The notes under the pieces: generated by a model | What the model was told of the DNA's origin: nothing | The model's database searches: none | The model's input: the letters and a program-made list of their open reading frames with translations, nothing else | Shown: one piece after another, positions 7,457-23,850 of the stretch | Numbering within the stretch: position 1 is the stretch's first letter | How the letters are laid out: each line of letters starts with the position of its first letter | Source of the DNA: Thermococcus kodakarensis KOD1 | GTDB taxonomy: Archaea; Methanobacteriota_B; Thermococci; Thermococcales; Thermococcaceae | Direction: 5' to 3' | DNA: 32,000 nt | Assembly: GCF_000009965.1 (NCBI RefSeq) | Contig: NC_006624.1 | Coordinates: forward strand, 1,350,001 to 1,382,000 | Position numbers and translations under genes: made by a program

Positions 7457-8290
7457 TTATCGTTCAATTTTTCCCTCAAGGTTCAGCTTTTTCAGGACGA
7501 TTTCCCACTGCCTCTCGGGAACTTCGGGGGGAGCGGTAAGCTTCTCAGCCCTCTCCCTGTCCATTAAGCCGTACCTCACGAGGGCCGCTATCCTCCTGTG
7601 CTCAAAGGAGTGCCCGTGAACCTTGTAGTAGCGCTCAAGAGCCGGGCCAAGAACGAGGCAGTTGGTCGTGTAGCCTGGGAGCTCAGGGAACTCAAAGGGG
7701 AGCTTTTCCAGGATTTCAAACCTCTCGCGCTCCGTCATCAGGGAGAGTAGCCTTATCTGGATAACACCACCGCTCATGAGCCTGTAGGGCTTGTGGCCGA
7801 AGGGAAGCTCATGGCCGGTGATGATGTAGCGGTAGCCGTTTTTCAGGGCGTACTTTCGGAGTCTCTCCATCGTCCTCCTCGAACAGGCCCTGCAGGGACT
7901 TTGGGCCTTCAGCAGGGCCTCCCTGAAGATGTCCGAGTAGTCGTAGCGGAGGATTTTGAAGAGGACTCCAAGGGCCTCGGCCATCCTCCGGGCGTTCTCG
8001 ATGGCTTCCTCTGCCATTAACCCGTGGTCTACCATTACAGCCTCAAGCTCCGGGACTTTGTAGACTTCCTTCGCCAGATAAAGGGCAACGACGCTGTCCT
8101 TCCCTCCAGAGTAAGCCACGATGGCCCTATCAACTTTCTCCATCAGCTCATCAAGTTCTCTTCTGATTTTCTCCCTGTCAAAGGGATGCTTTAGATAAAC
8201 CTGGCACTCCCTACATATCGGATTTCCGTTGATTATGTCTATCGTCGCAGTCCTCTCATCATGAATGCAGATTGAACACTTCAGCACCAC
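7457..8290 (-). CDS. PP-loop (adenine nucleotide alpha-hydrolase) family ATP pyrophosphatase with N-terminal zinc ribbon; function unknown
   Basis: 277 aa, GTG start. CSIC...CREC N-terminal cysteine pairs, PP-loop AYSGGKDS, second cysteine pair SPCRAC. TTTTTAAG TATA-like element ~30 nt upstream. Confidence 0.8.
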   Translation of the reverse strand: MVLKCSICIHDERTATIDIINGNPICRECQVYLKHPFDREKIRRELDELMEKVDRAIVAYSGGKDSVVALYLAKEVYKVPELEAVMVDHGLMAEEAIENARRMAEALGVLFKILRYDYSDIFREALLKAQSPCRACSRRTMERLRKYALKNGYRYIITGHELPFGHKPYRLMSGGVIQIRLLSLMTERERFEILEKLPFEFPELPGYTTNCLVLGPALERYYKVHGHSFEHRRIAALVRYGLMDRERAEKLTAPPEVPERQWEIVLKKLNLEGKIER

Positions 8291-8380: not shown

Positions 8381-10642
8381 TCAGCTTGATTCGTTTATCA
8401 CCACCTTTAACCTGCGTCTCCAGAAGAACTCGACCAAGAGGTACGCGAGGACAACCACCCACCCGATTGCAGAATACGCCCTAAGGCGCATAAACGGGTC
8501 GCGGAACTCGGCGTCCACCGTGGATTTCCCCGAGACAGTAATCAGCGTAAGCCCCGTGCGGTCGTCCCTAATTGGTTCCACAAGCTTTCCGTTCACCCTA
8601 ATTTTCCAGTGGGGGTAGTAGCTCTCGGATATCCGCACAAGCATCGGTCTCGACGGTGAGAGTCCAAGCGAGTACTCACCGTCCGATCTGGAAAAGAGCG
8701 TGTAGTTCAGGCTTCCATCGATCCCTGCGAGGCCGAAGATCAACTCCGCCTCCTTCTTTGAGTTCCAGTAGAGGCTGTGGTACAGGAGGTTGCCCCCAAC
8801 GAGGTAGAGGGTGCCGTTTCCAAGCTTCACCAAACCGATTATAGCCTTATCCCCAACCGAGAGGAGCGGCGTCACGTTCTCAAAGACGGGACCGTACCAG
8901 GGCATTCCCTCGTACTCGAAGGGGGCAAAGATCGAGACGTTGAAGACATCAGAGCTTAGGCGAGAATTATCAATGCGCTCCATTACGCCGCACACACCAA
9001 AGAGGCATCCGCTCCCCTCGGGAACCCATACGACCGTACCGCCGTTCCTCACGAAGTTCCAGAGAAGACCCTCCTCTTCCTTTGACGGGTTTCCAGCGTA
9101 AACAACGCCAACGGAACCTGGTGGAATCGCAGCAAGGTTAGACGGATCCTCAAAGTAGGCGTAGTCCACCGGGAGGTCATAGAAGTTTCCAAGGAGCACT
9201 GCCCCAACGGGTTCAACGAAACTGACGTTGGAGGTGTAGATCCAATAGTTACCTATCCTCTCAATCCGAGAATAGTCTTTCACAGTGACGTTGATGGACG
9301 CCATCAAAAACTTCGCAGCGTAGATCTTGAGGTATAAGGATGCATCATTACCAGTGGACAGAGCATACCACATCCTAAGGTGTCCCTCTTCTGCGGGATC
9401 CCCCTCGTGGTACCATCCGTTTAGAGTAGATTTACCCGTAAGAACGGGCAGGTAGCTATGGTGTGAAACACCCGGATGCACTACAAACCTCCAATCTTCC
9501 CCTGGCTGTTCGCGGAGGAACTCGGCGACCTCCATCAAGTCCCCGGGATAAGGCGGGATGGGCTCGGCATAGGGCAGTGCACCGAAGATCAAAATGCCCA
9601 CAGATAAGGCTCCAGCAACGAGCCTCCACTTAAGTTCTACTCCCGTTAAGGCGTCGGCAACGATGAGGGGAACCAGCAGGTTGACCATGTCCATCCATCT
9701 ATACTGGGGTATCATCGAGAGAACCGGAAGGGAATGAATCCATGGGGTCGGCGAGTAGTACCCGAGCGCGAGGTAGATATAAAGTGCGATGAGGCCAAGG
9801 GTGCGGCGCTGGAGAGTCCCCCTGAAATAAGCAACGATAAGGAACGCTGAAAAGACGGCGGTTGATGCTATCCCCACCGGCTCAAGAAAGCGCGAAGGCG
9901 ACACGCTGTAACTCTTGAAGAGCCAAGAATACTGGTATATCTTCCAAAAGTTTGTCCATTCTCTCTCTAAGAGGAATGGGACGTACCAAAAAGATGTAAG
10001 TGCCACGACGATTCCGCCGACCTTGAAAAAGTTTGAGAGAACGCGGGTTTTCCTGAAGTTTTCAAAGAGCAGTACGAGACCAGTGATAACGAGCGGAACC
10101 ATGGCCGAGTGATGGATCAAAGAGATAACCGAGATCGCCACGGCGGATGCCGCCAGGTACCTTTCACGAATGTCAACCGCCCAGAGAAGTGCGAGAAGAA
10201 AGAGGGGAAACAGGTTTATTGAGTTGGCCCTCGGAAAGTTGGCCTCGATATATGCAACTCCAAGGTGCCAGGGAAAGAGCAGAAAAACAACGGGAGCAAC
10301 GTACGGCTCGCGTCCGGTCCTCCTCAGGTAGAAGTGTAGCGCGACAGCACCCACGAACGAGGTCAGCATCAGGGTTGCGGCGTATCCCCTTATATCGCTC
10401 CCGAGCAAGATGCCAAGGAAAGCCCCTATGAGGTACGACAGGGGAGGATAAAATCTGAGGAACGGAAAGCCTGAGTACCAGTCTTCAATCCACGGCTCCC
10501 ACCCATCGCTCATGAGCTTGTGTATCTTGAATAGATGACCGTTGCCGTCCGTATTGAGGGCCGGGGGAGACGGAGCAGTGAACAGCGGGAGGTATAAGAG
10601 CACCGCAATTACCGCCAGAAGGATGAAGTAGGCTCTCCTCAA
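8381..10642 (-). CDS. Polytopic membrane protein with GT-C-like architecture (N-terminal multi-TM domain, large extracytoplasmic domain, C-terminal TM anchor)
   Basis: 753 aa. TTG start at 10640-10642 with GGAGGG SD 7 nt upstream, overlapping the upstream stop (TTGA). ~11-13 TM helices in residues 1-360. First loop is TDGNGHLFKIHKLMSDGWEPWIEDWYSGFPFLRFYPPL. Soluble part carries several NxS/T sequons. Last helix is AIGWVVVLAYLLVEFFW. Confidence 0.8.
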   Translation of the reverse strand: MRRAYFILLAVIAVLLYLPLFTAPSPPALNTDGNGHLFKIHKLMSDGWEPWIEDWYSGFPFLRFYPPLSYLIGAFLGILLGSDIRGYAATLMLTSFVGAVALHFYLRRTGREPYVAPVVFLLFPWHLGVAYIEANFPRANSINLFPLFLLALLWAVDIRERYLAASAVAISVISLIHHSAMVPLVITGLVLLFENFRKTRVLSNFFKVGGIVVALTSFWYVPFLLEREWTNFWKIYQYSWLFKSYSVSPSRFLEPVGIASTAVFSAFLIVAYFRGTLQRRTLGLIALYIYLALGYYSPTPWIHSLPVLSMIPQYRWMDMVNLLVPLIVADALTGVELKWRLVAGALSVGILIFGALPYAEPIPPYPGDLMEVAEFLREQPGEDWRFVVHPGVSHHSYLPVLTGKSTLNGWYHEGDPAEEGHLRMWYALSTGNDASLYLKIYAAKFLMASINVTVKDYSRIERIGNYWIYTSNVSFVEPVGAVLLGNFYDLPVDYAYFEDPSNLAAIPPGSVGVVYAGNPSKEEEGLLWNFVRNGGTVVWVPEGSGCLFGVCGVMERIDNSRLSSDVFNVSIFAPFEYEGMPWYGPVFENVTPLLSVGDKAIIGLVKLGNGTLYLVGGNLLYHSLYWNSKKEAELIFGLAGIDGSLNYTLFSRSDGEYSLGLSPSRPMLVRISESYYPHWKIRVNGKLVEPIRDDRTGLTLITVSGKSTVDAEFRDPFMRLRAYSAIGWVVVLAYLLVEFFWRRRLKVVINESS

Positions 10643-11076
10643 GACGATCCCTCCAGGAGTTCGACGAGCTCAACAAGCCCCTCCAGGTTCGAAGCGAAGA
10701 ACGTTGAGTGCCCATCGGTGCCAAGCCAAAGTCCCCTAACAACCTTCAGGATTTCAACCCTCCCCCAAGAAGCATCTATGAAGCCGCTCGGCACGCCTTT
10801 AACTGGAACGTTGGCGACACCTATTATCACCGCCTTTCGAAGGTGCTCTTCGTGGAGGATGAGGTCACTGAGAACGAATTTCAATAAATCAGGTTCAAAC
10901 CACACCGTTACCGTGTTTTCGGGATAATGACAAACGAGACGTACGTTCCCGCCGTCAACTGAGTACTCGGCTAGGTACCTGTCCCTGCCCTGCCAAGCAC
11001 TCACCCTGTTCTCCCTCAGAAACTTGTCCAGGAACTTCACAAGGTAGGCAACGTTTCTTATTTGTACCACCGCCAT
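10639..11076 (-). CDS. Hypothetical soluble protein (145 aa), translationally coupled to the 753-aa membrane protein
   Basis: Track ORF is 10639-11106. I prefer ATG 11074-11076 (MAVVQIRN...) because the longer start would lie inside the TATA-like TTTTATTT (11105-11112). No recognisable motif. Confidence 0.6.
   Translation of the reverse strand: MAVVQIRNVAYLVKFLDKFLRENRVSAWQGRDRYLAEYSVDGGNVRLVCHYPENTVTVWFEPDLLKFVLSDLILHEEHLRKAVIIGVANVPVKGVPSGFIDASWGRVEILKVVRGLWLGTDGHSTFFASNLEGLVELVELLEGSS
10646..10662 (-). repeat. 17-mer GAACTCCTGGAGGGATC (copy 1) at a coupled stop/start junction
   Basis: Identical to 31228-31244. It ends 3 nt before the downstream start codon (TTG 10642) and encodes ELLEGS of the upstream protein plus the GGAGGG SD. 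Confidence 0.9.
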
Positions 11077-11089
11077 TTCAACCAGTAGG

Positions 11090-11112
11090 TATTTTAAGCA
11101 CCTCAAATAAAA
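11090..11112. promoter_or_regulatory. Back-to-back divergent TATA boxes in a 44-bp intergenic spacer
   Basis: Plus-strand TATTTTAAG (11090-11098) lies 27 nt before ATG 11121. Minus-strand TTTTATTT (11105-11112) lies ~32 nt before ATG 11076. Neither gene has an SD, which fits two leaderless transcripts. Confidence 0.45.
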
Positions 11113-11120
11113 CCCTTACC

Positions 11121-12401
11121 ATGAAACCGGCCCTGAAGTTTCAATCAGCCCTCTATCTGTACATTCTGATAACCATCGGACTGACACTCATAGTTCCGCC
11201 GGCCTATGCACTAGAGGCGGTCCTGATATTCCTGTTCCTAATTGTGTTTTCTGGAACGATATTCTACTCCTTACTGATCGCTGCCTCAAGACGTGACTAT
11301 CCCTTTAAAGTTGAAGCCCATAAGGGAAACCCCTTCTTTGAACCGCTCGTTTACGTCCTGATTCCTGCCCACAATGAAGAGAAAGTCATAGAGATAACGG
11401 CCAGAACCGTACTCAACCAGGACTACCACAACTTCAAGCTGTTCCTGATAAACGACAACTCCACTGACTCAACGAAAGAGATCATGGAGAGAATAGCCTC
11501 TGAAAATCCAAAAAGGGTCGTTGTAATTGACGTTCCCCCCGAAAGGGGAAGGAGCAAGCCAAGGGCCCTTAATTACACCCTTGAACTAATAGAACAGTCA
11601 AGGGATCACCCCGATTACGTTTTCATTCTCGATGCAGACTACCTCTTACCTTCCAACGCCCTCCGCACCCTCGTCGGGATAATGGAAAATGCCCCCGAGT
11701 ACGTCCTGGGCGTTCAAGGGAACGTGAGGCCTAGGAACTGGGACAGGAACTTCGTAACAAAATTCATAACCCTTGAAAGGCTGGTGGGCTTCAACGTCGC
11801 CATAGAGGGGGACATGAAGCTAAACGAAAACGGGAAATACGGTGGGACAGTTGCCCTCCTGAGGTTTTCACACCTTCTCAGGCTCGGCATGTTCAGGGAG
11901 GATTCCGTCACTGAGGACACAGACCTGTGGGCCAGGGCCATGATTTCGGGCTACCGCTTCTGGTACTACCATGGGGTAATCGGCTGGGAGGAGGCCGTAG
12001 AGACCTTGAAGGACTACATAAAGCAGAGGTCGCGCTGGGCACAGGGCCACTTCCAGGTAATGCTCGATTACTACTGGAACGTCCTGAGGAGCTGCTCCGG
12101 AATCACGGAGGGGTTTATAGAGCACTTTTATCTAATAAGCTACCTCGTTCCAGTGTTCTGGTTCCTCTCGGTTGTCTTGAACGGCTACATCATCCTGTCA
12201 GGCAACGTACCGCTCATGCTGGCCAAACCCGGGCTGTTCCTTGCCGTCTCGATAACCGCGTTTTTGGTGTTCTGGGCATCGGTAGCGTATTCCAACTGGG
12301 TGGAGATGAAGAGACACAACTACCACGTGCCCTGGAGCTTCGTCGCGGCGTATCCCTGTACTTCATGGTTTTCGTCCTTGCGGGGGTTGTGTACACCATG
12401 A
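11121..12401 (+). CDS. Membrane-embedded family 2 glycosyltransferase with processive-synthase signature (D, DxD, TED, QxxRW); apparent frameshift near its 3' end
   Basis: 426-aa ORF with 2 N-terminal TM helices. VLIPAHNEE, ILDADY, SVTEDTDL, QRSRWAQGH, then >=4 TM helices. The tail of this frame (VPWSFVAAYPCTSWFSSLRGLCTP) is non-helical, while the -1 frame encodes a proper last helix (see next feature). Confidence 0.85.
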   Translation: MKPALKFQSALYLYILITIGLTLIVPPAYALEAVLIFLFLIVFSGTIFYSLLIAASRRDYPFKVEAHKGNPFFEPLVYVLIPAHNEEKVIEITARTVLNQDYHNFKLFLINDNSTDSTKEIMERIASENPKRVVVIDVPPERGRSKPRALNYTLELIEQSRDHPDYVFILDADYLLPSNALRTLVGIMENAPEYVLGVQGNVRPRNWDRNFVTKFITLERLVGFNVAIEGDMKLNENGKYGGTVALLRFSHLLRLGMFREDSVTEDTDLWARAMISGYRFWYYHGVIGWEEAVETLKDYIKQRSRWAQGHFQVMLDYYWNVLRSCSGITEGFIEHFYLISYLVPVFWFLSVVLNGYIILSGNVPLMLAKPGLFLAVSITAFLVFWASVAYSNWVEMKRHNYHVPWSFVAAYPCTSWFSSLRGLCTP

Positions 12402-12463
12402 GGGGCCTCACAAAGCTCCTGATAGGAAAACTCACATGGGAGAAGACGCAGAGGTTCACTTGA
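12329..12463 (+). other. Out-of-frame (-1) continuation that looks like the authentic C-terminus of the GT2 synthase
   Basis: Frame of track ORF 11927-12463 reads ALELRRGVSLYFMVFVLAGVVYTMRGLTKLLIGKLTWEKTQRFT*. This is a clean TM helix plus a basic W-x-K-T-x-R tail. Upstream of ~12329 that frame is Gly/Arg/Pro-rich nonsense. Confidence 0.55.
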
Positions 12464-12953
12464 AGGGGTCTTTGAGGGAGAGCCTATCAAAGTCGCCTCC
12501 TATTACCGAGGCATAAAGAACGGACGCCACTTTCAAGTCATCCCTAAAGAGTCCCAGGACGTACTCAACTATACCCTTTAGCAGCAGCAGGGTGGCAACG
12601 AGCGCATACCCACCCCTGAGCACGTCGGCAGTGTAAAAGATTACGGAAGCAAGGACGTGGACTGAGGCGTATGCCCCAAAGGGAGGGCTGAAATATTCCT
12701 CAAGGGCACGGAAATATTGGACAAACCTGGTTTTCCTTAGAGAGAGGTAAACCTCACGGTACATCAGGAACGAGGCAAAGAAAAACATCGACGCTACAAG
12801 GTAAACGATGGCATGGGGGAGACTGGCCTCCATAACCCAGAACGCGGTAAAGGCCGAACAAATAACCGCACTAACAAGCAGCGCTACCATGTAGAATCTT
12901 AGAAGGGCCAGCACGCGCCTTCGTTCCCCAGGAAACTTTACCACGACCCTCAT
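12456..12953 (-). CDS. Small integral membrane protein (165 aa, ~4 TM), translationally coupled to ttuA
   Basis: ATG 12951-12953 overlaps the ttuA stop (ATGA). Four hydrophobic segments. No recognisable motif. Confidence 0.65.
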   Translation of the reverse strand: MRVVVKFPGERRRVLALLRFYMVALLVSAVICSAFTAFWVMEASLPHAIVYLVASMFFFASFLMYREVYLSLRKTRFVQYFRALEEYFSPPFGAYASVHVLASVIFYTADVLRGGYALVATLLLLKGIVEYVLGLFRDDLKVASVLYASVIGGDFDRLSLKDPFK

Positions 12954-13870
12954 TTTTCCACCCTGAAGTCAATCGGCTTTTCCAGCCTCCAGAAGCGGCA
13001 GAACGAACAGACCTCTCCGCTCGACGGCATACCGCAGACCTTGCACTCCCTAAGCTCGGTCTCTTTCAGCTCGGCCTCGAAGAGGTGCTTCTTCCTCAGG
13101 TAGCCCTTGACGAAGTTTATCTTCGTTCCGGGCCTCTTCTCCTCCATCTCGTTGAGGATTGCCTTCCACTCGAGGGTCGTGGCTCCCCTCGCATAGGGAC
13201 ACTCGTCTATCTCGTACTCTATGCCGTTGGCCAAAGCGTAGGCAACAACCTCCCTTTCGGTCACCTCGTAGAGGGGCTTTACTTTCTTCACAAGCTTTCC
13301 GTTGAACTGGGAGGGGGTTACCGGGCCCTGCTTCGCCAGGTACTGCGTGTTCCAGTTCATTATGTTGTTGAAGATGAAGCTCGCCTCATCGTCGAGGTTG
13401 TGACCGGTGGCAACTGCGTCGAAGCCGTTGTCGTAGGCGAACTTGTTGAAGATATAGCGCTTGGTTAAGCCGCAGTAGGAGCACGTCGGCCTCCTCGTTC
13501 TCACCTCGCCGATACCATAGCCGAGAAGCTCTTTGAGCCTGACAATGTGAAGGGGAGCACCTATCTTCTCGCACTGCTCCCTAGCGTATCTCTCACCCTT
13601 CTCCGAGTACTCGCCGATGCCGAGGTTTATGTGGAGGCACTCGATATTGTAGCCGAGCTTCTTGAGGACGTGGGCTGTAACTGCCGAGTCCTTACCACCA
13701 CTGACGACGACCAGGACTTTTTCGTCGGGTTTGAGCATCTTGTAGCGCTCTATCGTTCTCTTTACTTTCCTCTCAAAGTACTCGGTGAAGTGCTCCTCGC
13801 AGAGGTACATTTTTGGATAGTGGAGCTTGATGAAGGCTGGTCTCTCACAGAACTTACATTTCATCGGCAT
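12950..13870 (-). CDS. ttuA: tRNA 2-thiolation protein TtuA/NcsA family (PP-loop, Fe-S, zinc fingers)
   Basis: 306 aa. N-terminal CKFC...CEEH, PP-loop VVSGGKDS, cluster cysteines CSYCG and DECPY, GHNLDDE, C-terminal CKVC...CSFC. GGTG lies 6 nt upstream of the ATG. Confidence 0.88.
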   Translation of the reverse strand: MPMKCKFCERPAFIKLHYPKMYLCEEHFTEYFERKVKRTIERYKMLKPDEKVLVVVSGGKDSAVTAHVLKKLGYNIECLHINLGIGEYSEKGERYAREQCEKIGAPLHIVRLKELLGYGIGEVRTRRPTCSYCGLTKRYIFNKFAYDNGFDAVATGHNLDDEASFIFNNIMNWNTQYLAKQGPVTPSQFNGKLVKKVKPLYEVTEREVVAYALANGIEYEIDECPYARGATTLEWKAILNEMEEKRPGTKINFVKGYLRKKHLFEAELKETELRECKVCGMPSSGEVCSFCRFWRLEKPIDFRVEK

Positions 13871-13911: not shown

Positions 13912-15405
13912 CTATCCATTGAGGGACTCAACAACACTCTTCCAGTTGCCCGGCTTCCTGAAGTCCTTCTCAGTGTAAAGACCTTCCTTCTTGAGTATCC
14001 CCCTCGCGGCGAGAAGGCCAGTCGCGGCAGCGTTCACTATGTCCCTGCTCAGCCCGGCCCCGTCTCCAGCGGCAAAGATGTTCTCGATGCTCGTCTCAAG
14101 GTTCTCATTCACCTCTGCTCTCATCGCGTAGTACTTAATCTCCGGGGCGTAAAGTAGGGTGTGGTCGCTGGCAACGCCCGGAAGGACTCTGTCAAGCTTC
14201 TCAAGGCCCTCTATGATGTTTGTGACGACGCGGTGTGGCAGGGCCATCGCTATATCTCCCGGAGTAACGTGCTTGAGGGTCGGCTCAACGTCGCTCCTCC
14301 GTATCCTGGCCCAGGTGCTCCTCCTGCCCCTCCTCAGGTCTCCAAGGCGCTGGATTAGGGGTTTTCCGCCGCCTATAGTTGTAGCAAGCTGGGCGATGCT
14401 CTTTCCGTAGGCTGTCGTGTCCTCGACCGGCTCGGTCAGTTCTATCCTCGTCAGGAAGGCGAAGTTGGTGTTGTTGCTCTTCTTTTCGTGCATGGAGTGG
14501 CCGTTCACGCCGACGTAGGAATCGTACTTCTCCTCAACCACGAAGCCGTTCGGGTTTGTGCAGAAGGTCCTCACGAAGTCGTCGTAGGTGTCTGTGTAGA
14601 TGTGGAACTTGGGGTCGTGGTTTATGCTCGTTATTGGCTCCATAACTATGGCCGGAACCTCGACGCGAACTCCAACGTCAATCGGCCCGTGCCTTGCCTT
14701 CAGCCCAATCTTCTGGGCAACGTCGTGGAACCAGTCGGCGCCTCCCCTCCCCGGGGCGACTATGATGTATCTAGTTCTAATCTCAAAGACGTCCTTTCCG
14801 CGCTTTACCTTCACCCAACCCTTGTTGAACTCAAGGGCCTTCGTCCAGAGAAGGAATTTGACACCCTTGCTCTCCAGGTATCGCTTAATGTCGCCTATTA
14901 CCTCGGGCGTCCTGTCGGAGCCTATGTGCCTCTGGATTATCGGGATGAACTTCACCCCAGCCTGGGCAGCCCTCTGTTCCCAGTACTTGACCTGCTCTGG
15001 ATCGCCCTTGAAGAGGTTCCTTGGGGCCTTATGTCTCAGGAGAATCTGGTCGACCTCCCAGACGAGCTGCCAGGCGTAGTTCTCGTCGTTGGTCAGCTCC
15101 CTAAGGTCGCCGCCGATGTCCGGGCGGAGGTTTATCGTGCCATCGCTCAGCCCGCCCGCGCCACCGACGCCGCTCATTATGTGGCAGGGCTGGCAGCCGA
15201 CACAGTAGCCGAGCTCGTACATTGGGCACTTCCTCTGGTCAACGTCGCCACCCTCGTCGATGACGAGAACCTTAAAATCGCTCTTTTCGGCAAGCTCGTA
15301 GGCTGCAAAAAGGCCAGCGGGGCCAGCACCGATTATAACAACATCGTACGCCTTTCCGCTTCCGTTTCCAGAAACCATATTTCCCTTACCGATGTCTATG
15401 GCCAT
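13912..15405 (-). CDS. FAD-dependent oxidoreductase of the uncharacterised COG2509-like type
   Basis: Track ORF runs to 15447. I prefer ATG 15403-15405 (MAIDIGKGN...). Dinucleotide fold YDVVIIGAGPAGLFAAYE and C-terminal FAAGDGAG. ~497 aa. Confidence 0.8.
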   Translation of the reverse strand: MAIDIGKGNMVSGNGSGKAYDVVIIGAGPAGLFAAYELAEKSDFKVLVIDEGGDVDQRKCPMYELGYCVGCQPCHIMSGVGGAGGLSDGTINLRPDIGGDLRELTNDENYAWQLVWEVDQILLRHKAPRNLFKGDPEQVKYWEQRAAQAGVKFIPIIQRHIGSDRTPEVIGDIKRYLESKGVKFLLWTKALEFNKGWVKVKRGKDVFEIRTRYIIVAPGRGGADWFHDVAQKIGLKARHGPIDVGVRVEVPAIVMEPITSINHDPKFHIYTDTYDDFVRTFCTNPNGFVVEEKYDSYVGVNGHSMHEKKSNNTNFAFLTRIELTEPVEDTTAYGKSIAQLATTIGGGKPLIQRLGDLRRGRRSTWARIRRSDVEPTLKHVTPGDIAMALPHRVVTNIIEGLEKLDRVLPGVASDHTLLYAPEIKYYAMRAEVNENLETSIENIFAAGDGAGLSRDIVNAAATGLLAARGILKKEGLYTEKDFRKPGNWKSVVESLNG

Positions 15406-15537
15406 TGCCTTAAAAAGTTTTTGGCTAAAATTAGTCAAAAAATTCAAAAGATTTCGAGATATTTAAACATTTTTATGTCAAAAAACGCCCGAAACATTTA
15501 AACGCATTCAGACAATAGACTTGTACCAGTGAGTACA

Positions 15538-20566: not shown

Positions 20567-21517
20567 TCAGGGACCCCTAACACTCCAGAAGTAGTTGATC
20601 ACCTCCTCCGCGAGCTGTTTGGAGATTATCTTAACGCTAACCTCGTGGTTCCAGTGGAGGGCGGATTCACTCCAGTTGTGGCTTCCAAGGAAGACTATCC
20701 TGCCGTCGACAACGACAATCTTGGCGTGGAGGGTCGTTGATGGGGAGTCGTATGAAACGTCGATTCCATTGGACTTAAGGTAGTTATACGCTTCCCTGTT
20801 GGTATCTAGGCTGTTCTCCAGAAGAATGTGGACCTCAACGCCGCGGCGTCTGGCGCGGATCAGTGCGTTTATCAAATCGTTGGCCTCGTCCGACCAGTCG
20901 TCTGGGTCGTAGAGCATCGAGAACATCATTACGTATATTTCCTGCGTTGCGCCATCAATTGCCTCAATCGCCTCCTCGTAGTAATCACGCTCTATGAGGA
21001 GTTCAACACTTCCATCGGTGTAAGTCCTGTTGAGGACGTCATAGGTTTCATTGAGCTTCAGTCGGCACTCTTCCAGCTCCGAAGAAAGCTGGTCAGAGGT
21101 TACCCTACACTCCTTGAGCTCCTCTTGAGCGCTTTCAAGCTCTTTCTGGCAGTTCTCAAGTTTCAAACTGGTCGAGTTGCAGGTTGAGAGATGAGCCAGA
21201 CACCCATTATACTCAGAAGTCAGGACGGCCAACCTGCTCTGGGTAACGTTGAGCGAATACTTCAAAAGGGAGGCGTTGCTGCGGCACTCCCTCAGGCTCG
21301 CGTTCAAAAGCTCTACCTTAGTTTTGAGGTCGGAGAGCTCTTTACTAAGATCGCTTGAGACGTTGCGGACACACTTTTCTTCCGAAACGGTTGCTACCGT
21401 GGTCCTTGATGCGGGTGAATAGTTAGAGGAGTTAGAATGAGTTCCAGGACTAGGGGTGCCCAAGCATCCAGCCGCTACCAAAACCAGCACCATCAAAACT
21501 GAAATTATTCCCCTCAT
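20567..21517 (-). CDS. Secreted/lipid-anchored single-HKD phospholipase D-superfamily protein with cysteine-rich coiled-coil stalk
   Basis: 316 aa. Signal peptide with lipobox-like LVAAGC (Cys18). Residues ~45-165 are heptad-like with 8 Cys and many NxS/T sequons. One HKD motif HAKIVVVDGRIVFLGSHNWSESA (nt ~20675-20728). Confidence 0.85.
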   Translation of the reverse strand: MRGIISVLMVLVLVAAGCLGTPSPGTHSNSSNYSPASRTTVATVSEEKCVRNVSSDLSKELSDLKTKVELLNASLRECRSNASLLKYSLNVTQSRLAVLTSEYNGCLAHLSTCNSTSLKLENCQKELESAQEELKECRVTSDQLSSELEECRLKLNETYDVLNRTYTDGSVELLIERDYYEEAIEAIDGATQEIYVMMFSMLYDPDDWSDEANDLINALIRARRRGVEVHILLENSLDTNREAYNYLKSNGIDVSYDSPSTTLHAKIVVVDGRIVFLGSHNWSESALHWNHEVSVKIISKQLAEEVINYFWSVRGP

Positions 21518-21560
21518 AATGGGTCACTGCGGAAGAACTAGCTTAAAAGTATTTTTGTAG

Positions 21561-21677
21561 TCAGAGCTTCACCTTAAACTCCTTTGCCCTCCTTTTCATC
21601 CTCCAGGCTTCTAACTTTCTCACGAATGGACACCTTGAGCGCCATTTCAGGTAGAGGACTTTAAGTCTGCTCTTCAT
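21561..21677 (-). CDS. Possible 38-aa highly basic small protein (below the track's size cutoff)
   Basis: ATG (complement of 21675-21677) is preceded by GGTGGT with 4-nt spacing. Translation is MKSRLKVLYLKWRSRCPFVRKLEAWRMKRRAKEFKVKL*. Codons are typical of neighbouring genes. No homology recognised. Confidence 0.3.
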   Translation of the reverse strand: MKSRLKVLYLKWRSRCPFVRKLEAWRMKRRAKEFKVKL

Positions 21678-21728
21678 TCCGACCACCAGGTTTTTATTCA
21701 TGGAAAGGTTTAAGCCATTAACGGTTTA

Positions 21729-21785
21729 CGGGATGATGAGTCTGGAGCCCCCTGAGAGGTGAAGAGGTTTCGCGGGGCTGACCGG
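21729..21785 (+). ncRNA. C/D box sRNA (2'-O-methylation guide), immediately 5' of the 92-aa ORF
   Basis: cggg-AUGAUGA(21733-21739)-GUCUGGAGCCCC-CUGA(21752-21755)-gag-GUGAAGA(21759-21765)-GGUUUCGCGGGG-CUGA(21778-21781)-ccgg. Both spacers are 12 nt with a 3-nt loop. C' is slightly degenerate (UGAAGA). TTTTTATT (21691-21698) is a possible TATA. Confidence 0.78.
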
Positions 21786-21786
21786 C

Positions 21787-22065
21787 ATGATAAAAAGAAA
21801 GCTCTGCAGGGAGTACGTTGAGGAGATAGAGAGGCTTGAACGCTCAATAGTAGAGTTAGAAGAGCAGATAAACGAGCTGAAGATGCAGCTCCGCCTTAAA
21901 GTAGAGGAAGCCAACAGCCTCGCGATAGAGAACACGAGCCTCAGGCACAAACTTGACATGATGAAGAAAAGGGAAAAGTACCTCATTGAACTTCTCAAGA
22001 AATTTGGAGTCCCCTTTGTCATCGTTGACGAAGACGAGTTCGAGGACGTGGATATATCAGAATGA
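21787..22065 (+). CDS. Small coiled-coil protein with acidic C-terminus (92 aa), function unknown
   Basis: The heptad-rich sequence EEIERLERSIVELEEQINELKMQLRLKVEEANSLAIENTSLRHKLDMMKKREKYLIELLKK followed by VDEDEFEDVDISE looks protein-like. The ATG lies 5 nt after the sRNA D box. An antisense ORF (21726-22022) is a low-complexity artefact. Confidence 0.55.
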   Translation: MIKRKLCREYVEEIERLERSIVELEEQINELKMQLRLKVEEANSLAIENTSLRHKLDMMKKREKYLIELLKKFGVPFVIVDEDEFEDVDISE

Positions 22066-22261
22066 ACCGATGATACGTTTTGCTCAAAAGCTCTTGAGAC
22101 TATATCAGCTTCGATGATTCTCCAGTAGCAGAGTCAAACGGTTTGTGGTACCAAGATCGGTTTTCATAAACATCAACATCGGACAATATAACCAAGCCAT
22201 ATCCTCAGACAGTAAATTTTTTATGAAAATGTGCTTATCTTATAACTAAGGTGGTTAGTAA

Positions 22262-23692
22262 GTGTTGGGGCGGAAGAGGGTTCTAGTGATGCTCTTGATA
22301 ACGATCATTGGCGTAAGCATCGTCTCACTAGTAGTTGCGATAACCTGGAGACTTAGCGAGGAGGAACCCCTCCGAATCTTTGGTTATGATGTTTACAAGT
22401 TTGAAGGCTCGGGCCACTACGCCATCTTCTACCCAATGCCAGACGGGACAATAAAACTCCTAAAAACCGGAAAAATCGGAATCTTCCCAACTTTTGTCAA
22501 GGTTCCCAGAAACGCGTGGCTAAAAGAGTACGCTAACAGAGAAAACACGCTAAAAGCCATGCCAACCCCGATAGTGATATTCGTGAACGATAAAGGATTG
22601 GGAATAGCAAGCCTCAAAGGAAGCAAAGTAAAACTCAAAGAACTAGAAATCCCGGAGATCTCAAAAATTACCACTGCATCAGCCCACTCCTGTCCCAAGG
22701 ATTACATCCCCGAAGGATACCGCTACTGCATCCCAAAAAACCCCGAAAGAAACTGGATTAGAGTGATCACCTCAAAAACTGTAACAGAAAAAATATCCTT
22801 CCTCGGACTCAGAATAGACAACCACGTCCTAAAAGACATAGACTTCGATATGAGGCTATTCCTAAGCGAAGCCACGTACTCGCACTGGACCGCTGGCATC
22901 GACGTCGGACCAGTAACACTCACCACGACAAAATTCGGGGAGAGCTTCAAAGGAAAGGGCCTGAAGCTGGAGTACACCACCCCCCGCGAAGTCAATCCTC
23001 AAAGCTCTATGTGGTCTCGTTATGTGAATCTGGACGTCAAGTATGTGGTTACCGTATATGGTGTTCTCGCCTATGACCGTTATACTGGTAAATATACTGA
23101 AATGCCATTAATCCTCACTTACCCACTCGAAATACTCACCACGGGCAGCTACAAAATCTACGAAACCCCGGACGGCAGTCAAAAGTATGTTGAGTCCAAG
23201 CCGGGATCAACGTTCTACACTCCAAGCATAACCAGAGAACCGCACTATCTAGAGATTCCTGGCTCTGCAGATTCAGAGAGGATATTGATAAATCAAGGGG
23301 ACGGTAGGGGGCTCATAATTGACGAGTGGCTCAACGAAAGCTGGCACCTTTCGAGTGAGTCTAGCTTTTCAATACCGATAGGGCCGGCCGCGGTTAAGGC
23401 CCTGGAAAAAGAGGGAGTACTGAAGAAATACCCGCAAGTCCGCAGAATCCTAAACAGCATATCACTAACCATCGGATTCCACAAAACAGCAAACCAAAGG
23501 TCAATGCTGATTTACCGCCTGCAGGCGACTCCGCGGGAGGACTGCTATGCCTTAAGGTACTATCAAAAACTGGACGTTGCCGAGGACTACAATAAGGTGA
23601 AAGTGCCAATGTTCCTGGTTACAGTGACGAATGGAAAATCACCCGGGTTCTGCGACCCGAGAACAGGCCTCTGCACAACCAGCACTGGATAA
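22262..23692 (+). CDS. Orphan N-terminally membrane-anchored/secreted protein (476 aa)
   Basis: GTG 22262 lies 7 nt after AAGGTGG. N-terminal TM VLVMLLITIIGVSIVSLVVAI. The remainder is beta-rich and soluble with two Cys pairs (CPKDYIPEGYRYC; CDPRTGLC). No motif recognised. A/T-rich codons. Confidence 0.7.
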   Translation: MLGRKRVLVMLLITIIGVSIVSLVVAITWRLSEEEPLRIFGYDVYKFEGSGHYAIFYPMPDGTIKLLKTGKIGIFPTFVKVPRNAWLKEYANRENTLKAMPTPIVIFVNDKGLGIASLKGSKVKLKELEIPEISKITTASAHSCPKDYIPEGYRYCIPKNPERNWIRVITSKTVTEKISFLGLRIDNHVLKDIDFDMRLFLSEATYSHWTAGIDVGPVTLTTTKFGESFKGKGLKLEYTTPREVNPQSSMWSRYVNLDVKYVVTVYGVLAYDRYTGKYTEMPLILTYPLEILTTGSYKIYETPDGSQKYVESKPGSTFYTPSITREPHYLEIPGSADSERILINQGDGRGLIIDEWLNESWHLSSESSFSIPIGPAAVKALEKEGVLKKYPQVRRILNSISLTIGFHKTANQRSMLIYRLQATPREDCYALRYYQKLDVAEDYNKVKVPMFLVTVTNGKSPGFCDPRTGLCTTSTG

Positions 23693-23850
23693 TCAAGAAG
23701 CAGGCCAATGTGGCATTGTTTTCTGTTTTTATCCTTCTATACCTCGCCTGTTCTTTCTTCCTATGCACCTCAAGTTTCAGCCAGCCGGAACGGAAACCTT
23801 AATTAACTCCCCCTCTTTTTTAGGTTCAGCTAAATGAACGGGTGATGCTT

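What the first reader, a model, noticed from the sequence alone, without database searches (positions are those of the whole stretch)
8381..12953. Candidate undescribed archaeal surface-glycan module: processive-type GT2 synthase facing a GT-C-like giant membrane protein and a coupled orphan
Seen in sequence: (1) 11121-12401(+) encodes a polytopic GT2 with the complete signature I associate with processive beta-glycan synthases (BcsA/PgaC/IcaA/chitin- and hyaluronan-synthase type). The motifs are ILDADY (DxD), SVTEDTDL (TED) and QRSRWAQGH (QxxRW), bracketed by 2 N-terminal and >=4 C-terminal TM helices. (2) From promoters packed into a 44-bp spacer, the opposite strand carries a 145-aa soluble orphan. 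It is translationally coupled (TTGA overlap, GGAGGG SD, TTG start) to a 753-aa protein. That protein has ~11-13 TM helices, an acidic/aromatic first loop, a ~370-aa extracytoplasmic domain and a C-terminal anchor, which is GT-C-like (YfhO/ArnT/PMT/STT3-type) architecture. (3) A 165-aa 4-TM protein lies convergent. Inference: either a polymerise-and-translocate synthase plus an extracytoplasmic transferase or handling partner, or a lipid-sugar donor synthase plus a GT-C acceptor transferase, analogous to bacterial CsbB/YfhO or Gtr systems. Neither matches the described archaeal Agl N-glycosylation gene sets as far as I know.
Basis: partly seen in the sequence, partly recalled or inferred. Interest (0 to 1): 0.7.

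Follow-up and report, generated by a model that had tools for sequence, protein, structure and literature searches.

The report
Conserved archaeal GT2–GT-C membrane glycan module
Four adjacent genes of Thermococcus kodakarensis (TK1552–TK1555) pair a cellulose/PNAG-synthase-type sugar-polymerising enzyme with a large outward-facing glycosyltransferase of an uncharacterised family; the gene set is conserved across Thermococcus and Pyrococcus but has never been studied, so it is a real and easily testable candidate for an unknown archaeal surface-sugar pathway.

Summary
The window is T. kodakarensis KOD1 (NC_006624, 1,350,001–1,382,000) and the genes are TK1552–TK1555.

- **TK1554:** a membrane GT2 with DAD, TED and QRSRW motifs. 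It scores best to PgaC/IcaA, and BcsA is the only solved structure that aligns through the acceptor half.
- **TK1552:** a full-length Pfam PF10131 match (E 2e-165). PF10131 belongs to the GT-C clan and has no known function. Its AlphaFold model (pLDDT 90) matches AftD, ArnT and STT3/PglB.
- **Synteny:** the order ttuA–4TM–GT2–small protein–GT-C recurs in every related Thermococcus and Pyrococcus locus examined.
- **Sister cassette:** a paralogous set (GT2 + archaeosortase ArtF + PF10131) repeats the GT2/GT-C pairing.

- The GT2 reading frame is broken in the reference by a one-base C-run deletion (12354–12356). The intact 447-aa form, ending at 12463, is on 79 read-based contigs.
- The "orphan" is a conserved Thermococcales family.
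- The GT2 has three, not four or more, C-terminal TM helices.

Whether the GT2 polymerises a glycan or makes a lipid-linked donor is unresolved. Operon contexts of its distant relatives (BcsB, DUF2334, GGDEF, exosortase) favour a synthase. No paper was found on these genes.

The parts
8381..10642 (-). TK1552, 753-aa GT-C-fold membrane glycosyltransferase of Pfam family PF10131 (PTPS_related). Residues 1–360 (nt 9563–10642) form the polytopic TM/catalytic domain, with an invariant WI-x-[DE]-WY motif in the first outer loop. Residues 361–717 (nt 8492–9562) form the soluble domain. Residues 718–753 (nt 8384–8491) form the C-terminal TM anchor.
   Evidence: PF10131 E 2e-165, model positions 1–621/621. 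AF2 pLDDT 90.3. Foldseek hits to AftD, ArnT, STT3/PglB, AftA and DPY19 for the TM part, and to GH42/GH164 non-catalytic domains for the soluble part. Invariant residues from alignment A1. NxS/T sequons: 6 in the soluble domain versus 2.0±1.3 expected, 0 in the TM domain.
10639..11076 (-). TK1553, 145-aa soluble protein with no TM segment. It is translationally coupled to TK1552 and belongs to a family found so far only in Thermococcales.
   Evidence: 4-nt TTGA overlap, and equivalent 4-nt overlaps in T. stetteri, P. abyssi, L001 and L003. 14 homologue clusters, no Pfam match. AF2 pLDDT 93 with a duplicated beta-sheet-plus-helix fold; no significant PDB match, best E 2.3e-3.
10649..10654 (-). 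GGAGGG Shine-Dalgarno-like motif, 6 nt upstream of the TTG start (10640–10642) of TK1552, lying inside the 3' end of TK1553.
   Evidence: Read directly from the sequence.
11077..11120 (.). 44-bp divergent intergenic spacer with two AT-rich boxes: TATTTTAAG at 11090–11098 and AAATAAAAC at 11105–11113. They are inferred to be back-to-back TATA boxes giving leaderless or near-leaderless mRNAs in both directions.
   Evidence: Sequence. Both boxes are conserved in six orthologous spacers. Their spacing to the start codons, about 27 nt (GT2) and 33 nt (TK1553), fits archaeal TATA-to-TSS distance; this is inference. No TSS data could be retrieved.
11121..12463 (+). TK1554, membrane GT2 of the synthase type. 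The true length is 447 aa. It has 2 N-terminal TM segments, a GT-A domain with DAD (nt 11631–11639), TED (11910–11918) and QRSRW (12024–12038), and 3 C-terminal TM segments. As written in the window the frame breaks at 12354–12356, so the annotated ORF stops at 12401 (426 aa).
   Evidence: Pfam Glyco_trans_2_3 1.2e-27, Glyco_tranf_2_3 2.2e-25, Glyco_transf_21 25.9 bits (cutoff 21.7). NCBIfam PgaC_IcaA 118.6 bits over residues 40–417. Orthologues are 447 aa and 74–87% identical. Hydropathy.
12354..12356 (+). Site of a single-base deletion: C3 here versus C4 in other assemblies of the same organism. It shifts the last 35 codons of TK1554, which encode the last TM helix and the conserved W-E-K-T-x-R-F tail.
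   Evidence: Alignments with T. stetteri, P. abyssi and L016–L018. L021 and L022 are identical to the window over 8.2 and 5.9 kb except for this base. The 426-aa product is on 3 finished-genome contigs; the 447-aa product is on 79 read-based contigs.
12456..12953 (-). TK1555, 165-aa membrane protein with four hydrophobic segments and a conserved C-terminal tail. It is convergent with TK1554 and overlaps its true 3' end by 8 nt. Its start overlaps the stop of ttuA (ATGA).
   Evidence: ORF and hydropathy. No Pfam or NCBIfam match, including GtrA. Only 12 representatives in a library of 1.84 billion proteins. Always found between ttuA and the GT2.
12950..13870 (-). TK1556 (ttuA, tRNA 2-thiouridine synthetase). 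This is a context gene co-transcribed with TK1555, and probably not part of the glycan module.
   Evidence: Pfam families TtuA_LIM_N and ATP_bind_3 on the orthologues. ttuA = tk1556 in PMC11323500. Coordinates from Table S7 of PMC4247193.

Best explanation
TK1552–TK1555 form a conserved but patchily distributed Thermococcales module for making a membrane-associated or extracellular glycan.

Shown:
- TK1554 is a polytopic inverting GT2 of the BcsA/PgaC/NodC ('synthase') type.
- TK1552 is a GT-C-fold enzyme of the uncharacterised family PF10131, with its large soluble domain predicted to face outside.
- The two genes are divergently arranged around a 44-bp shared control region.
- This arrangement, together with the two small genes, is kept from Thermococcus to Pyrococcus.

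Inferred:
1. TK1554 uses a cytoplasmic NDP-sugar to build a beta-linked chain and passes it through the membrane via its own 2+3 TM helices. The 4-TM protein TK1555 may act as a small accessory subunit, in the manner of PgaD or IcaD.
2. On the outer face, TK1552 uses a dolichyl-phosphate-linked sugar, as all known GT-C enzymes use polyprenyl-phosphate donors. It would decorate, extend or anchor that chain. Its GH42M-like plus beta-sandwich domain would hold the glycan, much as the soluble domains of AftD do for arabinan.
3. TK1553 is made in step with TK1552 through translational coupling and acts as a cytoplasmic partner or regulator.
For: - **GT2 type:** DAD, TED and QRSRW motifs are present and invariant in orthologues. 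The best family match is PgaC_IcaA, covering the TM regions; it is followed by the XrtP-associated GT (NF053846, 74.9 bits), CelA, HpnB, the XrtG-associated GT (TIGR03111, 49.8 bits) and, lower, NodC. BcsA is the only solved structure aligned across residues 36–314.
- **Context of the GT2's nearest non-Thermococcales relatives (27–36% identity):** 44 metagenome loci with usable flanks were taken from the scan and censused. Among their neighbours, 17 carry DUF2334, 9 BcsB and 3 GH42M (of 61 large neighbours), and 6 carry GGDEF and 2 an exosortase domain (of 72 small neighbours). These are typical of synthase-dependent exopolysaccharide operons.
- **GT-C identity:** PF10131 E 2e-165. PF10131 is listed in GT-C clan CL0111 (PMC7801869). 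Fold matches to AftD, ArnT, PglB and STT3. A conserved acidic residue sits in WI-x-[DE]-WY of the first loop. Sequons are enriched in the soluble domain.
- **Linkage:** identical gene order in all 7 distinct contexts with enough flank, plus a short metagenome contig (L026) that keeps the small gene beside the GT2. A second, paralogous PgaC-like GT2 (26% identical) sits in one cluster with a paralogous PF10131 protein and archaeosortase ArtF in 3 of 3 loci. One metagenome contig carries exosortase-like–GT2–PF10131.
- **Expression:** all four genes have reads in the KOD1 dRNA-seq table, with baseMean 62, 33, 217 and 22.
Against: - No experiment bears on any of the four genes.
- The GT2 is far below the PgaC_IcaA equivalog cutoff (118.6 versus 422.3 bits).
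- It also passes the Pfam Glyco_transf_21 threshold. That family (ceramide glucosyltransferase) carries the same motifs but adds a single sugar to a lipid, so the motifs do not prove processivity.
- No structure of TK1554 was predicted here, so a translocation channel is not shown.
- TK1555 and TK1553 have no detectable relatives of known function. PgaD/IcaD-like and regulator roles are analogy only.
- No known system combines a channel-forming synthase with a GT-C enzyme, so the proposed division of labour has no precedent.
- PF10131 homologues in Thermoproteota have no GT2 neighbour.
- The three finished KOD1-type genome records carry a frameshifted TK1554.
Confidence: 0.5

Rival explanations
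1. This is a Gtr / CsbB–YfhO / GacI–GacL-like three-component glycosylation system. TK1554 puts a single sugar on dolichyl phosphate at the cytoplasmic face. The 4-TM TK1555 assists or flips the lipid-sugar, as GtrA or GacJ do. The GT-C enzyme TK1552 then transfers the sugar outside onto an S-layer protein, an N-glycan or a lipid.
For: - The part list (small 4-TM protein + membrane GT2 + GT-C) mirrors GtrA/GtrB/GtrC.
- GT-C enzymes need a polyprenyl-phosphate sugar donor, and a dedicated donor synthase next door is the usual bacterial arrangement (established knowledge).
- The GT2 passes the Glyco_transf_21 threshold, a single-addition lipid glycosyltransferase family with the same D/D/D/QxxRW motifs.
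- An archaeal GT2 with a minimal cellulose-synthase-like fold (PDB 6yv7) is among the sequence hits. From memory, that enzyme is not a polymer exporter.
Against: - The GT2 scores poorly to every polyprenyl-phosphate sugar synthase model: AglJ 22.7 bits, ArnC 21.4, PpgS and DPM-type not listed. To solved DPMS and ArnC it aligns only in the nucleotide-binding half.
- Its TM layout (2 N-terminal + 3 C-terminal) is that of PgaC, not GtrB's two C-terminal helices.
- TK1555 has no GtrA (PF04138) match at E ≤ 0.1.
- Neighbours of the GT2's relatives are BcsB, DUF2334 and GGDEF, not GT-C enzymes.
Confidence: 0.27
2. The genes are functionally unrelated neighbours. The GT2 and the GT-C enzyme work in different pathways and are kept side by side only by local synteny around ttuA and a shared bidirectional promoter.
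For: - Flanking genes are housekeeping (ttuA, a PP-loop ATPase, an AsnA-like synthetase), and much of the wider region is syntenic between KOD1 and T. stetteri.
- TK1555 is coupled to ttuA rather than to a glycan gene.
- Thermoproteota PF10131 genes have no GT2 neighbour.
Against: - The four-gene block survives where its flanks differ. In P. abyssi, in L023 and in L001 the gene downstream of the GT-C is different.
- The GT2 + PF10131 pairing recurs independently in the ArtF cassette (3 of 3 loci) and in L051.
- The four genes appear to share one taxonomic distribution: Thermococcus and Pyrococcus for the GT-C, Thermococcus only among the named small-protein hits. The 4-TM hits carry no organism names.
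Confidence: 0.13
3. In KOD1 the module is decaying. TK1554 is a genuine pseudogene, and the locus has no function in this strain.
For: The window and three finished-genome protein records (BAD85743.1, WCN27503.1, WCN29793.1) carry the frameshifted 426-aa form.
Against: - 79 read-based contigs encode the intact 447-aa protein, and two of them are otherwise base-for-base identical to the window.
- The lesion is a one-base change in a homopolymer, the commonest kind of assembly error.
- There are no other defects in any of the four genes.
- TK1554 has the highest read count of the four.
Confidence: 0.1

Closest known systems
PgaC/PgaD and IcaA/IcaD poly-β-1,6-GlcNAc synthases, and BcsA/BcsB cellulose synthase (bacterial synthase-dependent exopolysaccharide systems)
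   Same: - The GT2 has the same size (447 aa), the same 2+3 TM layout and the same D, DxD, TED and QxxRW motifs.
- PgaC_IcaA is the best-scoring curated family, and BcsA is the only solved structure aligned through the acceptor half.
- A small polytopic membrane protein is encoded next door, as PgaD and IcaD are.
- Distant relatives of the GT2 sit beside BcsB, DUF2334 and GGDEF genes.
   Different: - The score is far below equivalog level (118.6 versus 422.3 bits).
- The window has no PgaB/IcaB-type deacetylase, no BcsB, no PilZ and no c-di-GMP genes.
- TK1555 is not homologous to PgaD or IcaD.
- The conserved partner here is a GT-C enzyme, which none of these bacterial systems has.
GtrA/GtrB/GtrC, CsbB/YfhO and GacI/GacJ/GacL three-component extracytoplasmic glycosylation systems
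   Same: A membrane GT2, a small 4-TM protein and a GT-C-fold transferase with an outward-facing domain are encoded together.
   Different: - The GT2 is of the synthase type (QxxRW, flanking TM bundles), not the GtrB/ArnC/DPM1 type.
- The 4-TM protein has no GtrA-family match.
- The GT-C belongs to PF10131, not to YfhO, PMT_2 or Glucos_trans_II.
Mycobacterial arabinofuranosyltransferase AftD (GT-C; PDB 6w98)
   Same: It is the best structural match to the TK1552 model (E 2.5e-10). Both have a GT-C membrane core plus a large soluble extracytoplasmic region and a C-terminal TM helix. AftD acts on a polymer built by cytoplasmic GT2 enzymes (established knowledge).
   Different: - Sequence identity is only 12–13%.
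- AftD is much larger (about 1,400 aa) and has CBM-type domains, not a GH42M-like domain.
- The two belong to different Pfam families: PF11847 scores only 13.1 bits here against a cutoff of 26.
ArtF / XrtG-type mini-exosortase cassettes (NCBIfam TIGR04293, TIGR03110, TIGR03111)
   Same: Sister cassettes in T. pacificus, an AM4-like Thermococcus and a MAG combine a PgaC-like membrane GT2 with a PF10131 GT-C protein. A metagenome contig does the same. The window's GT2 also hits the XrtG- and XrtP-associated GT models.
   Different: - The window's module has no exosortase-family gene, no GH42M-domain protein and no HTH regulator.
- It has instead the lineage-specific TK1553 and TK1555.
- The GT2s are only 26% identical and the GT-Cs about 32%.
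- These cassettes are themselves known only from comparative genomics.

Membership tests
GT-C glycosyltransferases (Pfam clan CL0111), family PF10131 PTPS_related | Significant full-length match to the family model | tested here: met
   552.2 bits, E 2e-165, model positions 1–621/621, gathering cutoff 26.4. Clan membership of PF10131 is stated in PMC7801869.
GT-C glycosyltransferases (Pfam clan CL0111), family PF10131 PTPS_related | GT-C fold: polytopic N-terminal membrane core plus an extracytoplasmic domain | tested here: met
   AF2 model with pLDDT 90.3. Foldseek hits to AftD 2.5e-10, ArnT 5.7e-6, yeast and human STT3, PglB, AftA and DPY19.
GT-C glycosyltransferases (Pfam clan CL0111), family PF10131 PTPS_related | Conserved acidic residue in the first extracytoplasmic loop | tested here: met
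   W51-I52-x-[D/E]54-W55-Y56 is conserved in all 28 aligned homologues. Its position relative to the active site of solved GT-Cs was not superposed.
GT-C glycosyltransferases (Pfam clan CL0111), family PF10131 PTPS_related | Uses a polyprenyl-phosphate-linked sugar donor on the outer face | not testable with these tools
   Needs biochemistry. Outward orientation is supported only by sequon enrichment in the soluble domain.
Processive membrane β-glycan synthases (BcsA / PgaC / IcaA / NodC / chitin and hyaluronan synthase type GT2) | GT-A domain with D, DxD, TED and QxxRW motifs | tested here: met
   D112, D171-A-D173, T264-E-D266 and Q302-R-S-R-W306 are all invariant in 7 orthologues.
Processive membrane β-glycan synthases (BcsA / PgaC / IcaA / NodC / chitin and hyaluronan synthase type GT2) | TM helices on both sides of the GT domain that form a glycan channel | tested here: inconclusive
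   2 N-terminal and 3 C-terminal hydrophobic segments are present once the frameshift is corrected. No structure of the GT2 was predicted, so a channel is not shown.
Processive membrane β-glycan synthases (BcsA / PgaC / IcaA / NodC / chitin and hyaluronan synthase type GT2) | Equivalog-level score to a characterised synthase family | tested here: not met
   PgaC_IcaA 118.6 versus 422.3, CelA 59.1 versus 699.1, NodC 40.8 versus 550.
Processive membrane β-glycan synthases (BcsA / PgaC / IcaA / NodC / chitin and hyaluronan synthase type GT2) | Processive polymerisation coupled to export | not testable with these tools
   Needs an in vitro assay or glycan analysis.
Gtr-type three-component glycosylation (GtrA flippase, GtrB-type GT2, GT-C) | GtrB/ArnC/DPM1-type polyprenyl-phosphate sugar synthase | tested here: not met
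   ArnC model 21.4 bits (cutoff 529), AglJ 22.7 bits (cutoff 325). Solved DPMS and ArnC align only to residues of about 70–209.
Gtr-type three-component glycosylation (GtrA flippase, GtrB-type GT2, GT-C) | GtrA-family (PF04138) small 4-TM protein | tested here: not met
   No Pfam or NCBIfam family at E ≤ 0.1 for TK1555. Only 12 representatives were found by an exhaustive phmmer search.
ArtF/XrtG mini-exosortase cassette | Exosortase/archaeosortase-family gene in the cluster | tested here: not met
   None among the window's ORFs in or around the module. One is present in the paralogous cassette: ArtF 171.8 bits, cutoff 150.

The most novel reading that the evidence does not exclude
A PgaC/BcsA-type synthase and a PF10131 GT-C transferase work as an obligate pair. 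This would be a 'synthase plus outside decorator/anchor' route for an archaeal envelope or biofilm glycan. It comes in two forms: with a mini-archaeosortase (ArtF cassette) or, as here, with the lineage-specific proteins TK1553 and TK1555. That would give PF10131 its first function and define a kind of glycan secretion–modification system not described in any domain of life.
Probability: 0.3. Interest if true: 0.7.

Novelty: new variant of a known kind. Interest (0 to 1): 0.45.

Why it matters
- Apart from AglB-dependent N-glycosylation, little is known about how Thermococcales build surface or matrix glycans.
- PF10131 is a widespread GT-C family with no assigned function.
- No known system pairs a channel-type GT2 synthase with a GT-C enzyme.
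- The module sits in T. kodakarensis, which has routine gene-deletion tools, so the question can be tested directly.
- As a practical by-product, the reference gene model of TK1554 is truncated by a one-base error or variant. Anyone cloning or deleting it should use the 447-aa frame ending at 1,362,463.

Tried and rejected
2. **TK1553 versus the paralogous cassette.** A profile–profile comparison of the TK1553 family with the unknown protein upstream of the paralogous GT-C gave probability 0.1, so they are unrelated.
3. **Distant relatives of TK1555.** An exhaustive phmmer search returned 12 representatives, all about the same length. Two are short fragments. No link to GtrA, PgaD or IcaD emerged.
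4. **GT2 next to PF10131 in Thermoproteota.** None was found. The neighbours are ChrB_C, ParA-like, HerA-like, beta-helix and radical SAM proteins.
5. **PF10131 next to distant GT2 relatives in metagenomes.** Only 1 of 79 loci (L051) had one.
6. **Relationship of the TK1552 soluble domain to the stand-alone GH42M-domain proteins.** It is marginal: 27% identity over 118 aa, E 0.002 in a pairwise comparison, and no phmmer hits.
7. **Transcription start sites for TK1553/TK1554.** The stored copy of Table S2 of PMC4247193 is cut before this region.
8. **Literature.** Nothing was found for TK1552–TK1555, PF10131 or PTPS_related function, XrtG, or synthase-dependent EPS in Thermococcales. The Haft archaeosortase paper is not held.
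9. **GT-C profile against PDB sequences.** There were no meaningful hits.

Full report
**What the window is**

Table S7 of the T. kodakarensis primary-transcriptome paper (PMC4247193) lists five genes on NC_006624.1:
- TK1552 at 1,358,381–1,360,642 (−)
- TK1553 at 1,360,639–1,361,076 (−)
- TK1554 at 1,361,121–1,362,401 (+)
- TK1555 at 1,362,456–1,362,953 (−)
- TK1556 at 1,362,950–1,363,864 (−)

For TK1552–TK1555 these are the window's ORF coordinates plus 1,350,000. For TK1556 the 3' end matches and only the called start differs by 6 nt. TK1556 is ttuA according to PMC11323500. An exact-sequence look-up names the window's GT2 product as BAD85743.1 / WP_011250505.1, 'glycosyltransferase, family 2 [Thermococcus kodakarensis KOD1]'.

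**Check of the observation**

The four ORFs are present as described.
- **GT2.** It contains ILDADY, SVTEDTDL and QRSRWAQGH at residues 171–173, 264–266 and 302–306.
- **Translational coupling.** The 145-aa gene ends in TGA, overlapping the TTG start of the 753-aa gene (TTGA at 10639–10642). GGAGGG lies at 10649–10654, six bases upstream.
- **Spacer.** The gap between the divergent ATG codons is 44 bp. It holds two AT-rich boxes, TATTTTAAG at 11090–11098 and AAATAAAAC at 11105–11113, both conserved in six orthologous spacers. They lie about 27 nt (GT2) and 33 nt (TK1553) from the start codon they would serve. That fits two back-to-back archaeal TATA boxes producing leaderless or nearly leaderless mRNAs. 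This is inference, because the stored TSS table is cut before this region.
- **Expression.** All four genes have reads in the dRNA-seq table: baseMean 62, 33, 217 and 22 for TK1552 to TK1555.

**A correction: the GT2 frame is broken in the reference**

- Orthologues of the GT2 are 447 aa, whereas the window's ORF is 426 aa.
- The last 35 codons of the orthologues match a different frame of the window, ending at 12463.
- DNA alignment places a one-base deletion in a C run: CCC at 12354–12356 in the window, against CCCC in 94–96%-identical relatives and TATCCTTTG in T. stetteri.
- Two independent read-based assemblies of the same organism (SRR12717848, DRR794392) are identical to the window over 8,262 and 5,916 bases except for this single base. 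They encode the intact protein.
- In the protein collection, the truncated form is on 3 contigs, all finished genomes. The intact 447-aa form is on 79 read-assembled contigs.

The gene is therefore most likely intact in the organism, and its true span is 11121–12463. That span overlaps the convergent 165-aa gene by 8 nt, as in the orthologues. After correction, hydropathy gives two N-terminal and three C-terminal TM segments, not four or more.

**What the proteins are**

*TK1554.*
- It matches Glyco_trans_2_3 (1.2e-27), Glyco_tranf_2_3 (2.2e-25), Glycos_transf_2 and, just above threshold, Glyco_transf_21.
- Among curated NCBIfam models the best is PgaC_IcaA: 118.6 bits, residues 40–417 on model positions 14–377 of 407. 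It is followed by the XrtP-associated GT (74.9 bits), CelA (59.1), HpnB (53.8), the XrtG-associated GT TIGR03111 (49.8) and, lower, NodC (40.8). Dol-P- and Und-P-sugar synthase models score about 21–23 bits.
- All of these scores are far below equivalog cutoffs.
- A profile of seven orthologues, searched against PDB sequences, aligns through the acceptor half (residues 36–314) only with BcsA. Pyrococcus DPMS and ArnC align weakly to the nucleotide-binding half alone.

*TK1552.*
- It is an end-to-end match to Pfam PF10131, 'PTPS_related' (552 bits, E 2e-165).
- The one paper in the library that mentions this family lists it among GT-C clan CL0111 members with 'function unknown' (PMC7801869).
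- An AlphaFold2 model built on 28 homologues has mean pLDDT 90.3.
- By Foldseek, its membrane part matches AftD (E 2.5e-10), ArnT, yeast and human STT3, PglB, AftA and DPY19. Its soluble part matches the non-catalytic domains of GH42, GH164 and GH35 enzymes.
- The first loop carries an invariant WI-x-[D/E]-WY motif. Other invariant polar residues are E133, R138, H177, R315 and D318.
- The soluble domain has six NxS/T sequons, against 2.0±1.3 in composition-matched shuffles (P≈0.009). The membrane domain has none, which is consistent with an outward-facing soluble domain.

*TK1553.*
- It has no TM segment and no Pfam or NCBIfam family.
- It is not an orphan. A profile search finds 14 clusters, and every named one is a Thermococcus. 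Every orthologous locus also carries it at the same position, P. abyssi included.
- Its model (pLDDT 93) is a duplicated four-or-five-strand sheet plus helix. It has only weak TBP / Pur-alpha-like matches, best E 2.3e-3.

*TK1555.*
- It has four hydrophobic segments and no family match, GtrA included.
- It has only 12 representatives in a 1.84-billion-protein library.

**Conservation of the arrangement**

- The order ttuA – 4-TM – GT2 (opposite strand) – small protein – GT-C is found in T. stetteri, P. abyssi, three Thermococcus/Thermococcaceae metagenome loci (L001, L003, L023) and a 94–96%-identical relative of KOD1.
- The block persists where the gene beyond the GT-C differs, as in P. abyssi, L001 and L023.
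- Identity to KOD1 is 74–87% for the GT2, 49–81% for the GT-C, 35–78% for the 4-TM protein and 28–75% for the small protein.
- The 4-nt overlap between the small gene and the GT-C gene is kept in all loci read.
- The named hits for the GT-C are a subset of Thermococcus and Pyrococcus species. That suggests a patchy, accessory distribution, but a full presence/absence survey was not possible.

**A sister cassette**

A second clade of PF10131 proteins (about 808–835 aa, about 32% identical) occurs in T. pacificus, an AM4-like Thermococcus and a Thermococcus MAG. In all three, a single cluster holds:
- a GH42M-domain protein;
- a PgaC-like membrane GT2 (PgaC_IcaA 139.7 bits; TIGR03111 'XrtG-associated' 99.7 bits; 26% identical to TK1554);
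- an HTH protein;
- in T. pacificus and the AM4-like strain, a mini exosortase-family gene (Exosortase_EpsH) that in T. pacificus scores as archaeosortase ArtF (TIGR04293, 171.8 bits, cutoff 150); no such gene was identified in the MAG;
- one to three unknown proteins;
- the GT-C.

A metagenome contig (L051) carries exosortase-like – GT2 – three unknowns – PF10131 fragment. The GT2/PF10131 pairing therefore recurs independently, which argues for a functional link. From memory, the bacterial XrtG cassettes are also said to include PF10131-type proteins. I could not check this. By contrast, the shorter PF10131 homologues of Thermoproteota have no GT2 neighbour.

**What the GT2's wider relatives do**

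A metagenome scan with the GT2 profile gave one true orthologue, L026, with the small gene next to it. It also gave 79 relatives at 27–36% identity. A Pfam census covered their neighbours in 44 loci with usable flanks:

| Neighbour set | Family | Count |
|---|---|---|
| 61 large ORFs | DUF2334 | 17 |
| | BcsB | 9 |
| | Glyco_hydro_42M | 3 |
| 72 small ORFs | GGDEF | 6 |
| | Exosortase_EpsH | 2 |

BcsB and GGDEF are hallmarks of bacterial synthase-dependent exopolysaccharide operons. DUF2334 is, from memory, a deacetylase-like family. This supports placing TK1554 among polymer synthases, although at about 30% identity the function may have changed.

**Most likely mechanism**

Shown:
- a synthase-type GT2 and an outward-facing GT-C enzyme are co-conserved and divergently arranged;
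- the two small genes travel with them.

Inferred:
- TK1554 polymerises a β-glycan from an NDP-sugar and threads it across the membrane, possibly with TK1555 as an accessory subunit.
- TK1552 then uses a dolichyl-phosphate sugar to decorate, extend or anchor the chain outside, with its GH42M-like/β-sandwich domain holding the glycan.
- TK1553, made in step with TK1552, acts on the cytoplasmic side.

I put this at about 0.5.

**Rivals**

- **Gtr/CsbB–YfhO-like scheme (about 0.27).** TK1554 would make a Dol-P-monosaccharide that TK1552 consumes. The part list and the GT21 match favour it. The poor fit to all known polyprenyl-phosphate sugar synthases, and the absence of a GtrA match, count against it.
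- **Chance neighbourhood (about 0.13).**
- **Real pseudogenisation in KOD1 (about 0.10).**

**Comparison with what is known, and novelty**

All four genes already carry generic annotation, and both enzymes belong to catalogued families. NCBIfam also holds models for the XrtG-associated GT2 (TIGR03111) and for ArtF (TIGR04293). What is not described, as far as the searchable literature shows, is:
- any function for PF10131;
- any study of TK1552–TK1555;
- any system in which a channel-type GT2 synthase is partnered with a GT-C enzyme.

I rate this a new variant of a known kind. It is a solid, testable lead in a genetically tractable archaeon, not a demonstrated new mechanism. Interest 0.45.

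Noticed in passing
window 12354–12356 (NC_006624.1 1,362,354–1,362,356): The KOD1 reference and two later finished T. kodakarensis records carry a one-base deletion in a C4 run. It truncates TK1554 to 426 aa. 79 read-based contigs encode the intact 447-aa protein. This is either a propagated assembly error or a strain polymorphism.
   Followed up: yes
L019 713–10472; L020 2807–10427; L010 4710–12454: A paralogous cassette is present in other Thermococcus genomes. Its order is GH42M-domain protein – PgaC-like GT2 – HTH protein – archaeosortase ArtF (in L019 and L020) – unknowns – PF10131 GT-C. The archaeal mini-exosortase has no known substrate or function.
   Followed up: partly
L051 336–5010: A metagenome contig of unknown lineage carries an exosortase-like protein (175 aa), a membrane GT2 (440 aa), three unknown ORFs and the N-terminus of a PF10131-like protein. 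The cassette therefore appears to exist in at least one further, unidentified genome.
   Followed up: partly
window 12950–12953: The start of the membrane protein TK1555 overlaps the stop of ttuA (ATGA). A lineage-specific membrane protein is thus co-translated with a tRNA-thiolation enzyme. The adjacency is kept in all related loci, although in L023 the two genes are 15 nt apart. The reason is unknown.
   Followed up: partly
window 7457–8290 (-) and 12950–13870 (-): The module is bracketed by two PP-loop ATPases: TK1551 (QueC/ATP_bind_3-like, with an N-terminal Cys cluster) and TtuA (TK1556). They are about 26–28% identical to each other. In P. abyssi the TK1551-like gene is not at this position.
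   Followed up: no
window 8492–9562 (TK1552 soluble domain); L019 713–2008: A GH42M-like (beta-galactosidase trimerisation domain) fold turns up in three places. It is a domain of the GT-C enzyme, a stand-alone protein in the sister cassette, and a neighbour of 3 distant GT2 relatives. It may be a recurring partner of this GT2 family, but the sequence link is marginal (E 0.002).
   Followed up: partly
window 21000–24000: This stretch has lower G+C (45–48% against about 53%). It contains the C/D-box sRNA sR23 (21731–21783, 74.8 bits) and a 476-aa ORF (22262–23692) with no Pfam match. A PLD-like protein (20567–21517) lies beside it.
   Followed up: no
window 14488–15501 (+): A 337-aa ORF runs antisense to the FAD-dependent oxidoreductase gene TK1557 (13912–15447, -). 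Several shorter antisense ORFs lie within the GT-C and GT2 genes. These are probably non-coding by-products of composition.
   Followed up: no
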